Below, piece after piece: positions 56,801 through 59,800 of a DNA stretch of 64,000 nucleotides. Numbering within the stretch: the first letter of the stretch is position 1; each line of letters starts with the position of its first letter. Source of the DNA: Escherichia coli 042 (GTDB lineage: Bacteria; Pseudomonadota; Gammaproteobacteria; Enterobacterales; Enterobacteriaceae); assembly GCF_000027125.1 (NCBI RefSeq), contig NC_017626.1. One strand, given 5' to 3'. The position numbers were made by a program.

Positions 56801-59800
56801 CCATTTCCGCGCAGACGATGACGTCACTGCCCGGCTGTATGCGCGAGGTTACCGACTGCGGCCTGAGTTTTTTAAATGGCGGAAAATCGTGTTGAGGCCA
56901 ACGCCCATAATGCGGGCGGTTGCCCGGCATCCAACGCCATTCATGGCCATATCAATGATTTTCTGGTGCGTACCGGGTTGAGAAGCGGTGTAAGTGAACT
57001 GCAGTTGCCATGTTTTACGGCAGTGAGAGCAGAGATAGCGCTGATGTCCGGCGGTGCTTTTGCCGTTACGCACCACCCCGTCAGTAGCTGAACAGGAGGG
57101 ACAGCTGATAGAAACAGAAGCCACTGGAGCACCTCAAAAACACCATCATACACTAAATCAGTAAGTTGGCAGCATCACCCAAAGAGACAACTTTATCTAA
57201 AAATAATATTAATTACTCAATCTTAAATATAAATTTATTATTTAAATATTATTAAAACAGCAAGAAATCAAGTTTATTATCAGACATTAGCAATAATTCA
57301 GAATATATTTATATCAATGGGCATATGAATAATGGAATTATTGATATCACTTATAAAAAAGGGCCGCCGGTCGGCAGCCCTTTTCTATCAACGAGAGATA
57401 TTACTCAACCGTAACCGATTTCGCCAGGTTACGCGGCTGGTCAACGTCGGTGCCTTTGATCAGCGCAACGTGGTAAGCCAGCAGTTGCAGCGGAACGGTG
57501 TAGAAGATCGGTGCAATAACCTCTTCCACATGCGGCATCTCGATGATGTGCATGTTATCGCTACTTACAAAACCCGCATCCTGATCGGCGAAGACATACA
57601 ACTGACCGCCACGCGCGCGAACTTCTTCAATGTTGGATTTCAGTTTTTCCAGCAATTCGTTGTTCGGTGCAACGACGATAACCGGCATATCGGCATCAAT
57701 CAGCGCCAGCGGACCGTGTTTCAGTTCGCCAGCAGCGTAGGCTTCAGCGTGAATGTAAGAGATCTCTTTCAGCTTCAATGCGCCTTCCAGCGCGATTGGG
57801 TACTGATCGCCACGGCCCAGGAACAGCGCGTGATGTTTGTCAGAGAAATCTTCTGCCAGTGCTTCAATGCGTTTGTCCTGAGACAGCATCTGCTCAATAC
57901 GGCTCGGCAGCGCCTGCAGACCATGCACGATGTCATGTTCAATGGAGGCATCCAGACCTTTCAGGCGAGACAGCTTCGCCACCAGCATCAACAGCACAGT
58001 TAACTGAGTGGTGAATGCTTTAGTGGACGCCACGCCAATTTCCGTACCGGCATTGGTCATCAGCGCCAGATCGGATTCGCGCACCAGAGAAGAACCCGGA
58101 ACGTTACAGATTGCCAGTGAACCAAGGTAACCCAGCTCTTTCGACAGACGCAGGCCAGCCAGGGTATCCGCGGTTTCGCCAGACTGTGACAAGGTGATCA
58201 TCAGGCTGTTACGGCGCACGGCAGATTTGCGATAGCGGAATTCAGAGGCGATTTCGACGTCGCACGGAATACCTGCCAGCGATTCAAACCAGTAGCGGGA
58301 AACCATACCGGAGTTATAAGAAGTACCACAGGCGAGGATCTGAATATGCTCAACCTTCGACAGCAGTTCGTCGGCGTTCGGTCCCAGCTCGCTTAAATCA
58401 ACCTGACCGTGGCTGATGCGCCCGGTAAGGGTGTTTTTGATCGCGTTTGGCTGTTCGTAGATCTCTTTCTGCATGTAGTGGCGGTAAATACCTTTATCGC
58501 CCGCGTCATATTGCAGATTGGATTCGATATCCTGACGTTTTACTTCCGCGCCAGTTTTATCGAAGATGTTTACCGAACGGCGAGTGATTTCCGCAATATC
58601 GCCCTCTTCAAGGAAGATAAAGCGACGGGTCACTGGCAACAGCGCCAGCTGGTCAGAAGCGATAAAGTTTTCGCCCATGCCCAGGCCAATCACCAGCGGA
58701 CTACCAGAACGTGCCGCCAGCAGGGTATCCGGATGACGGGAGTCCATGATCACTGTACCGTACGCACCACGCAGTTGCGGAATAGCACGCAGAACAGCCT
58801 CACGCAGAGTCCCGCCTTGTTTCAGCTCCCAGTTCACCAAATGTGCAATCACTTCGGTGTCGGTTTCAGAAACGAAGGTATAGCCACGCGCTTTTAACTC
58901 TTCACGCAGCGGTTCATGGTTTTCGATGATGCCGTTATGCACCACCACAATGTGTTCAGAAACATGCGGATGCGCGTTAGCTTCTGAAGGTTCACCGTGG
59001 GTCGCCCAGCGAGTATGAGCAATACCGGTGCCGCCATGCAGAGGATGTTCTTCCGCTGCCTGAGCCAGCATCTGGACTTTACCGAGGCGACGCAGGCGGG
59101 TCATATGACCTTCTGCATCAACAACGGCCAGACCGGCAGAGTCATATCCGCGGTATTCCAGACGACGTAAACCTTCAAGAAGGATTTCTGCTACATCACG
59201 TTGCGCGATCGCGCCAACAATTCCACACATAGTTTTTGATTCCGATTTATATCGTTGTCGGTCAACCTGTATGCCCGTTTTTTCGGGCGCCCCGAGCCTT
59301 GTAGAGAGTGGGGTTATTTTTATAGTTACTGCTTGTGGGCGGGAGATTATGTTATCTCCTCATCCCATATGACCGGATTACCCGGCCAGAATTACTTTTT
59401 CTTTACCGGACGACGCCAGCCTTCTTTTTGAGTCTGCGGCACACGGCTGATCGCCAGGGCGTTTTCGCCGACATTACGCGTCACAGTTGTACCCGCAGCA
59501 ATGGTCGCGCCTTTGCCTACTGTTACCGGGGCCACCAGCTGAGTGTCGGAACCGACAAACACATCGTCACCGATAATGGTCTTAAATTTATTCGCACCAT
59601 CGTAGTTGCAGGTAATGGTTCCCGCGCCGATGTTAACGTTATCGCCAATTTCCGCATCGCCCAGGTAAGTCAGATGACCAGCTTTCGAGCCTTTACCCAG
59701 ACGCGCTTTTTTCATCTCAACGAAGTTACCGACGTGTGCACCTTCCAGCAACTCAGCACCAGGACGCAGACGGGCAAACGGGCCAATGGTACAGGCCGCC

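What the first reader, a model, noticed from the sequence alone, without database searches (positions are those of the whole stretch)
57189..57400. attTn7 downstream of glmS is empty although a large island landed ~200 bp away
The glmS terminator hairpin is intact and no Tn7 end sequences are present, so the canonical Tn7 site is unoccupied. The resistance island used an AT-rich IS1 target nearby instead. The site remains available for Tn7-like elements.
Basis: partly seen in the sequence, partly recalled or inferred. Interest (0 to 1): 0.3.

Follow-up and report, generated by a model that had tools for sequence, protein, structure and literature searches.

The report
Empty Tn7 site beside IS1 island
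The Tn7 docking site just after the glmS gene is intact and unoccupied, and a 25-kb IS1-bounded antibiotic-resistance island sits 199 bp away; this is correct but ordinary, because about 98% of E. coli genomes have an empty site and the island is already published.

Summary
glmS (57401-59230, minus strand) ends with a TnsD-binding sequence that matches K-12 at 35 of 36 positions. The one difference is a wobble base at +44.

E. coli strain SCU-105 has the same glmS-downstream sequence and carries Tn7. There, Tn7 sits exactly 25 nt after the stop codon and duplicates GGGCT. In the window this pentamer (57376-57380, in the 5' arm of the glmS terminator hairpin) is single and uninterrupted. The window has no Tn7 end sequence and no tnsA, tnsD or tnsE.

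The resistance island (32204-57179) is bounded by two identical, directly repeated IS1 copies. It is flanked by a 9-bp duplication, CAAAGAGAC, in a 15-25% GC spacer. Removing it restores the lpfA-glmS arrangement found in 1,887 of 5,426 complete E. coli genomes.

That the site is still usable is an inference from natural Tn7 insertions at the identical sequence, not a test.

Nothing here is new. The island matches the published Tn2411/ROD66 of enteroaggregative E. coli 042, inserted between lpfA and glmS. Only 100 of 5,426 genomes carry Tn7 at glmS. Interest is low.

The parts
57401..59230 (-). glmS (609 aa). Its 3' end carries the Tn7 target recognition sequence.
   Evidence: ORF list. Same position and annotation in strain 118UI and K-12.
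57401..57436 (-). TnsD-binding sequence of attTn7 (+23 to +58 from the insertion centre): CCGCGTAACCTGGCGAAATCGGTTACGGTTGAGTAA.
   Evidence: Matches K-12 at 35 of 36 positions; the only difference is at +44, G instead of A, an Ala wobble base. Identical to Tn7-occupied SCU-105. Site definition and critical positions are from PMC2918618.
57376..57380 (-). Predicted Tn7 insertion point: the 5 bp GGGCT (plus strand agccc) that Tn7 duplicates, 21-25 nt after the glmS stop codon. Present once here, so the site is empty.
   Evidence: Tn7R and Tn7L junctions in SCU-105. K-12-type strain S17-1 has the same 25-nt spacing. The window sequence is uninterrupted.
57353..57388 (-). glmS intrinsic terminator: stem-loop at 57361-57380 with an A-tract before it and a U-tract after it.
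   Evidence: RNA fold: centroid -25.8 kcal/mol, z = -4.4. Inverted repeat I1. 100% conserved in island-free genomes.
57189..57352 (.). AT-rich part of the lpfA-glmS spacer. It is native lpf-island sequence and probably the lpfA upstream regulatory region, now separated from lpfA by the island.
   Evidence: GC is 25% over 57189-57400 and 15-23% in the core. Identical to strain 118UI. Promoter-like matches on the minus strand; their function is an inference only.
57180..57188 (.). Right copy of the 9-bp IS1 target-site duplication CAAAGAGAC.
56412..57179 (-). Right-hand IS1 (768 bp), identical to the left copy. It truncates an eamA-family gene of the Tn1721-derived segment.
   Evidence: Terminal repeats located. 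0 mismatches out of 768 between the two copies. EamA Pfam hit on the truncated ORF 55752-56402.
32972..56411 (.). Island cargo: catA1, a Tn21-type transposon (tnpA, tnpR, the class 1 integron In2 with aadA1-qacEdelta1-sul1, IS1326, tniB/tniA, mer operon), and tetR(A)-tet(A) with a truncated eamA.
   Evidence: 100% identity to annotated plasmids ECOR37 RCS88_p and S. dysenteriae pBU53M1 and to chromosomal copies elsewhere.
32204..32971 (-). Left-hand IS1 (768 bp), in the same orientation as the right copy.
32195..32203 (.). Left copy of the 9-bp target-site duplication CAAAGAGAC, 87-95 nt upstream of the lpfA start codon.
31536..32108 (-). lpfA-O113, the first gene of the long polar fimbria operon lying between glmS and pstS.
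   Evidence: ORF list. Annotation in 118UI and SCU-105.

Best explanation
The interval is the intact, unoccupied Tn7 attachment site of an E. coli chromosome of the lpfO113 type, in which the long polar fimbria operon lies between glmS and pstS.

For Tn7, the known mechanism is as follows. TnsD binds the last 36 bp of glmS (57401-57436). With TnsC it directs TnsAB to insert Tn7 at a fixed distance from that binding site, whatever the sequence at the insertion point. Here that point is the 5 bp GGGCT at 57376-57380, inside the glmS terminator hairpin. No such event has happened in this chromosome.

Separately, a 24,976-bp unit bounded by two identical direct IS1 copies entered 199 bp away. It carries catA1, Tn21 with a class 1 integron and the mer operon, and tet(A). 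IS1 transposase made a 9-bp staggered cut at CAAAGAGAC in the AT-rich lpfA upstream spacer. The unit came either by composite transposition or by homologous recombination of an IS1-bearing circle with a solo IS1 already at this position.

The two systems are mechanistically independent, so their proximity reflects only that both target choices fall within the same 307-bp spacer.

Shown here: the sequence anatomy, the empty-site comparison and the natural Tn7 insertions at the identical sequence. Inferred: that Tn7 could still insert here, and which of the two routes IS1 used.
For: 1. Removing 32204-57188 gives a sequence colinear with island-free strain 118UI, 99.4% identical over 12.3 kb. The duplicated 9-mer occurs once in that strain.
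2. 1,887 of 5,426 complete E. coli genomes carry the same spacer plus glmS end.
3. The Tn7R sequence is found in 113 of 5,426 genomes and is joined to glmS in 100. Of those 100, 29 are in the lpf-type context.
4. The SCU-105 junctions place Tn7 25 nt after the stop codon with the duplication GGGCT. K-12-type strain S17-1 has the same 25-nt spacing with a different flanking sequence.
5. The window has the unduplicated, uninterrupted sequence.
6. The window has no Tn7 end similarity and no TnsA, TnsD or TnsE homologue.
7. The TnsD-binding site is conserved except at wobble position +44. According to PMC2918618 no sequence other than the TnsD site is needed, and the critical positions are +31, 33, 42, 43, 45, 51 and 54.
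8. The hairpin fold has z = -4.4.
9. The two IS1 copies are identical and in direct orientation.
10. PMC2808357 and PMC2990770 describe the same island (Tn2411/ROD66) between lpfA and glmS in EAEC 042.
Against: Target activity of this attTn7 was not tested, and only 64 kb of the genome is visible. A Tn7 copy within the range of cis target immunity but outside the window, or elsewhere in the genome, cannot be excluded.

The exact window sequence (the IS1/spacer junction) occurs in none of the 5,426 complete E. coli genomes searched, so the assignment to the 042 lineage rests on the published description only.

The exact junction between the right-hand IS1 and the truncated eamA is absent from 72,556 plasmids. 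The unit as it stands here has therefore not been seen on a donor plasmid.
Confidence: 0.93

Rival explanations
1. The site looks intact but is functionally closed to Tn7 because of the adjacent island. Possible causes are transcription reading out of IS1 or tet(A) across the target, altered nucleoid structure of the AT-rich spacer, or cross-immunity from the Tn402-type tni module. This would explain the 'mutual exclusivity' of Tn7 and the Tn2411 island reported for EAEC isolates.
For: Okeke et al. found no isolate with both elements at this locus (PMC2990770). The island carries distant TnsB and TnsC relatives: TniA at E 1.6e-14 and TniB at E 9e-6.
Against: All known sequence requirements for TnsD targeting are present. 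Tn7 immunity requires TnsB-binding sites, and none are in the window. Strains CH4804 and CH4799 carry Tn7 at glmS together with a near-identical Tn21/catA1/tet(A) island on a plasmid, so the two platforms coexist in one cell. The reported exclusivity is explained more simply by lineage: ST31/ST394 versus ST10.
Confidence: 0.04
2. The AT-rich sequence between IS1 and the terminator, or the whole lpf cluster, is the decayed remnant of an old Tn7-like element. On this reading the site is not truly empty.
For: The lpf cluster occupies the same glmS-pstS gap that Tn7 uses, and it is AT-rich like horizontally acquired DNA.
Against: K-12-type and lpf-type sequences diverge 3 nt after the glmS stop codon, not at the +25 position where a Tn7-family insertion would begin. 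The region has no TGT-terminal repeats, no repeated TnsB-type binding motifs and no tns genes. Tn7 itself inserts into this sequence in 29 genomes, treating it as ordinary target DNA.
Confidence: 0.02
3. Tn7 was once present here and was later lost.
For: None found in the sequence.
Against: GGGCT is present once and the flanks are identical to never-occupied genomes. Tn7 excision leaves a break rather than a clean restoration. Only replacement by recombination with an empty allele could mimic this, and it would be undetectable.
Confidence: 0.01

Closest known systems
attTn7 of E. coli K-12 (TnsD-dependent Tn7 attachment site in the glmS terminator; Gay et al. 1986; Mitra, McKenzie & Craig 2010, PMC2918618)
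   Same: The TnsD-binding sequence at the 3' end of glmS matches at 35 of 36 positions. The insertion point is 25 nt after the stop codon and lies inside a terminator hairpin. The right end of Tn7 faces glmS.
   Different: From 3 nt after the stop codon onward the sequence is unrelated to K-12. It has a different hairpin (GGGCTGCCG/CGGCGGCCC rather than the K-12 GCCCTGC/GCGGGGC), and the lpfO113 operon follows instead of pstS. The duplicated pentamer would be GGGCT rather than GCGGG.
Tn2411 / ROD66 resistance island of enteroaggregative E. coli 042 (Chaudhuri et al. 2010, PMC2808357; Okeke et al. 2010, PMC2990770)
   Same: A Tn21-like element with cat, tet(A), In2 (aadA1, sul1, qacEdelta1) and mer genes, inserted between lpfA and glmS, with a Tn1721-family segment at one end.
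   Different: No difference was found. Identity with the 042 sequence itself could not be checked because that genome is not among the records searched. The papers call the element a conjugative or Tn21-like transposon and do not analyse the IS1 boundaries or the attTn7 state in the passages read.
Tn2670 / the r-determinant of plasmid NR1 (R100), and Tn9: IS1-bounded composite transposons (from general knowledge)
   Same: Directly repeated IS1 copies bracket catA1 and Tn21, flanked by a 9-bp target duplication.
   Different: This unit carries an extra tet(A)/Tn1721-derived segment. Its right-hand IS1 cuts into eamA at a junction not seen in 72,556 plasmids.

Membership tests
attTn7 (TnsD-type Tn7 attachment site) | Lies at the 3' end of glmS, with the TnsD-binding sequence (+23 to +58) conserved at the positions needed for binding. 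| tested here: met
   57401-57436 matches K-12 at 35 of 36 positions; the only change is at wobble position +44. Critical positions are from PMC2918618.
attTn7 (TnsD-type Tn7 attachment site) | Tn7 actually inserts at a fixed distance downstream of this sequence, with a 5-bp duplication and the right end facing glmS. | tested here: met
   SCU-105 and SW070912 have flanks 100% identical to the window, with Tn7R 25 nt after the stop codon and the duplication GGGCT. 29 genomes carry Tn7 in the lpf-type context.
attTn7 (TnsD-type Tn7 attachment site) | Target activity in vivo in this strain. | not testable with these tools
   Needs a transposition assay.
Occupied attTn7 (resident Tn7 or Tn7-like element) | Tn7 terminal sequences, TnsB-binding repeats, tnsABCD(E) genes and a duplicated pentamer. 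| tested here: not met
   0 motif matches. Only chance 7-8-mers in the interval. No TnsA, TnsD or TnsE by tblastn. A single GGGCT.
IS1 composite transposon (Tn9 / Tn2670 type) | Two IS1 copies bracket the cargo, with a 9-bp direct duplication of a target that is single in an empty site. | tested here: met
   IS1 at 32204-32971 and 56412-57179, identical and in direct orientation. CAAAGAGAC on both sides and once in strain 118UI.
IS1 composite transposon (Tn9 / Tn2670 type) | Moved as one unit from a donor replicon. | tested here: inconclusive
   The cargo is 100% identical to plasmids RCS88_p and pBU53M1, but the exact junction between the right-hand IS1 and the truncated eamA is found in no plasmid or genome searched. 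Recombination with a pre-existing solo IS1 would leave the same signature.
Rho-independent (intrinsic) terminator | G+C-rich stem-loop followed by a U-tract directly downstream of the gene. | tested here: met
   8-bp stem, 4-nt loop, UUUUUU tail, starting 21 nt after the stop codon; -25.8 kcal/mol, z = -4.4. Termination activity itself was not tested.

The most novel reading that the evidence does not exclude
The 307-bp lpfA-glmS spacer may act as a double landing pad, where TnsD-guided Tn7 (class 2 integron) and IS1-borne Tn21 units (class 1 integron) arrive within 200 bp of each other. On this reading the island interferes with Tn7 entry, for example through outward transcription or local chromatin. 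That would turn the reported mutual exclusivity of the two resistance islands in EAEC into a real exclusion mechanism rather than a lineage effect.
Probability: 0.04. Interest if true: 0.4.

Novelty: already known. Interest (0 to 1): 0.08.

Why it matters
It matters little. The result confirms that the glmS-downstream region of this multiresistant E. coli still offers a usable Tn7 docking site. This is of practical use for single-copy mini-Tn7 tagging of such strains. It also means a second resistance platform (Tn7 with dfrA1-sat2-aadA1) could in principle be added next to the first.

The work also pins down three things exactly for lpfO113-type E. coli, about a third of complete genomes: the IS1 boundaries and duplication of the published Tn2411/ROD66 island, the Tn7 insertion coordinate, and the pentamer that would be duplicated.

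Tried and rejected
1. The simple terminator scan found no terminator at the glmS end. I rejected this as a tool limitation, because the fold and the inverted-repeat search both show the hairpin.

2. I looked for the exact window junctions in 5,426 complete E. coli genomes and 72,556 plasmids to identify the source strain or a donor plasmid. Neither the IS1/spacer junction nor the junction between the truncated eamA and IS1 is present, so strain identity rests on the literature.

3. I considered whether the lpf cluster or the AT-rich spacer is a relic of a Tn7-like element. I rejected this because K-12 and lpf-type sequences diverge 3 nt after the stop codon, not at +25, and there are no end-like repeats.

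4. I searched the literature for an experimental mini-Tn7 insertion in strain 042 and found none.

5. A first attempt to search with the island failed because the query was one base too long. A script also failed because locus files were missing on the compute machine, so I copied the Tn7 proteins and ends in by hand instead.

Full report
**What is at the coordinates.** The 609-aa ORF at 57401..59230 on the minus strand is glmS (annotation of the same gene in strains 118UI and K-12). It is followed on that strand by glmU, atpC, atpD and atpG, at higher coordinates. The stop codon is the complement of 57401-57403. Below it, 57189-57400 is a 212-bp, 25% GC stretch with a core of 15-23% GC. It ends at an IS1 terminal repeat (...GTTGGCAGCATCACC, last base 57179) plus nine bases, CAAAGAGAC (57180-57188).

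**The island and its boundaries.** A second IS1 lies at 32204-32971. It is 768 bp, in the same orientation as the first, and has 0 mismatches to it. It is preceded by the same nine bases at 32195-32203. In island-free strain 118UI the lpfA-glmS spacer reads ...TACAC CAAAGAGAC AACTTTATC... with the 9-mer present once. Deleting 32204-57188 from the window gives a sequence colinear with 118UI, 99.4% identical over 12.3 kb. This is the classic signature of an IS1 event.

Between the two IS1 copies lie:
- catA1;
- a Tn21-type transposon, with tnpA, tnpR, intI1-aadA1-qacEdelta1-sul1, IS1326, tniB/tniA and merRTPCADE;
- tetR(A)-tet(A);
- an eamA gene cut by the right-hand IS1.

These assignments come from annotated copies that are 100% identical.

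**Where exactly attTn7 is in this kind of chromosome.** The sequence downstream of glmS differs from K-12 starting 3 nt after the stop codon. K-12 reads TAATAAATGGATGCCCTGCGTAAGCGGGGCATTTTT, and the window reads TAATATCTCTCGTTGATAGAAAAGGGCTGCCGACCGGCGGCCCTTTTTT. The reason is that this chromosome carries the lpfO113 fimbrial operon between glmS and pstS, as do 1,887 of 5,426 complete E. coli genomes. The K-12 coordinates could therefore not simply be transferred.

I used a Tn7 right-end sequence recalled from memory and validated it: it is 100% identical in 113 genomes and overlaps annotated tnsA. A chimeric glmS-Tn7R query then found 100 genomes with Tn7 joined to glmS. A query of Tn7L plus lpf-type flank showed that 29 of them are of the lpf type.

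In SCU-105 the flanks are 100% identical to the window, and a full Tn7 (tnsABCDE, intI2, dfrA1-sat2-aadA1) sits between glmS and lpfA. Its junctions are glmS-TAA + TATCTCTCGTTGATAGAAAAGGGCT | TGTGGGCGGACAATAAAG..., and ...TTTTGTCCGCCCACA | GGGCTGCCGACCGGCGGCCC. Tn7 is thus 25 nt after the stop codon and duplicates GGGCT. K-12-type strain S17-1 shows the same 25-nt spacing with a different sequence. This agrees with published work showing that only the TnsD-binding site matters, not the sequence at the insertion point (PMC2918618).

In window coordinates:
- the pentamer is 57376-57380;
- its centre, position 0, is 57378;
- the TnsD-binding site (+23 to +58) is 57401-57436.

**The site is empty and intact.** The window reads AGAAAAGGGCTGCCGACCGG without interruption and with a single GGGCT.
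- The Tn7 terminal motif has no match in 64 kb, even with 3 mismatches.
- A sensitive short-word search with both Tn7 ends gives only 7-8-mers in the interval, and a best hit of 13 nt (E 0.16) elsewhere.
- tblastn with TnsA-E from SCU-105 finds no TnsA, TnsD or TnsE. It finds only the expected distant similarity of TnsB to TniA and of TnsC to TniB, inside the class 1 integron of Tn21.
- The TnsD-binding sequence differs from K-12 at one base, +44 (GCA to GCG, an Ala wobble position). That base is not among the seven positions whose mutation impairs binding, and the sequence is identical to that of Tn7-occupied SCU-105.
It has an 8-bp G+C stem at 57361-57380, a 4-nt loop and a UUUUUU tail, at -25.8 kcal/mol with z = -4.4. 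It is 100% conserved in island-free genomes. The predicted Tn7 insertion point lies in its 5' arm, just as Tn7 disrupts the K-12 terminator.

**How it works.** Two independent targeting systems happen to point into the same 307-bp spacer.
- Tn7 uses TnsD to read the conserved end of glmS, and it inserts at a measured distance from that site.
- IS1 prefers AT-rich DNA and makes 9-bp staggered cuts (general knowledge of IS1). Other strains support this local preference. SW070910 has a solo IS1 with the duplication GAATTATTG at the equivalent of window 57335-57343, only about 35 bp from the Tn7 point. Strains 504211 and FCI55 have IS1 in lpfD or lpfA.

Whether the 25-kb unit transposed as a composite, or recombined as a circle into a solo IS1 already at this position, cannot be told from the sequence. 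Both routes leave the same duplication. The island has no glmS-directed machinery, so it did not 'choose' IS1 over attTn7.

**Comparison with what is known.** The arrangement matches the published Tn2411/ROD66 island of enteroaggregative E. coli 042. [quoted passage not shown] Okeke et al. described the same island, noted that Tn7 uses this locus in other EAEC lineages, and remarked that the two were mutually exclusive in their collection (PMC2990770).

An empty attTn7 is the rule: only 100 of 5,426 complete genomes (1.8%) have Tn7 at glmS. The two resistance platforms can share a cell. CH4804 and CH4799 have Tn7 at glmS and a near-identical Tn21/catA1/tet(A) island on a plasmid.

**Verdict.** Both the observation and the interpretation are correct, and the exact coordinates are now fixed. 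The finding is a routine negative next to an already published island. What remains unproven is the in vivo target activity of this site, and whether Tn7 exists elsewhere in the genome.

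Noticed in passing
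window 32109-32203 and 57189-57352: The island splits the 307-bp lpfA-glmS spacer. Only 95 nt remain upstream of the lpfA start codon, and the other 212 nt are now 25 kb away, including two promoter-like matches on the lpfA strand (57329->57302 and 57255->57226). Expression of the long polar fimbria operon may be altered.
   Followed up: no
L009 2640-3440 (strain SW070910); window equivalent 57335-57343: An independent solo IS1, a divergent variant, sits in the same spacer with the 9-bp duplication GAATTATTG. It is about 35 bp from the Tn7 insertion point and 17 bp from the terminator stem. Strains 504211 and FCI55 have IS1 in lpfD or lpfA. The region is hit by IS1 repeatedly.
   Followed up: partly
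window 55752-56411 / 56412: The right-hand IS1 truncates an EamA-family transporter gene of the Tn1721-derived segment. This exact junction occurs in none of 72,556 plasmids or 5,426 E. coli genomes, although IS1 lies 100-600 bp further out in many plasmids. This suggests an IS1-mediated adjacent deletion or a lineage-specific event.
   Followed up: partly
window 57398-57403, compared with L004 2330-2345: K-12-type and lpfO113-type chromosomes diverge 3 nt after the glmS stop codon. Each has its own unrelated terminator hairpin at about the same distance, and Tn7 inserts 25 nt after the stop codon in both.
   Followed up: yes
window 45205-47783: tniB and tniA of the Tn402-type module inside In2/Tn21 are the only relatives of Tn7 transposition proteins in the window: TnsC versus TniB at 24% identity (E 9e-6), and TnsB versus TniA at 30% identity (E 1.6e-14).
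   Followed up: yes
window 3284-5464 (minus strand): A 726-aa ShET2/EspL2-family type III effector or enterotoxin gene lies between mnmE and tnaC. It is absent from strain 118UI but present in 765 of 5,426 genomes, including Tn7-bearing SCU-105.
   Followed up: partly
window 14993-21886: Three large genes lie between yieH and phoU and give only weak pentapeptide-repeat hits, mostly below the Pfam cutoffs. One is annotated as the T3SS effector EspY4 in strain 118UI.
   Followed up: no
H21/H108 and H34/H107 (strains CH4804 and CH4799): These clinical strains carry Tn7 at chromosomal glmS and a near-identical IS1/catA1/Tn21/tet(A) island on a plasmid, so the class 1 and class 2 integron platforms coexist in one cell.
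   Followed up: partly
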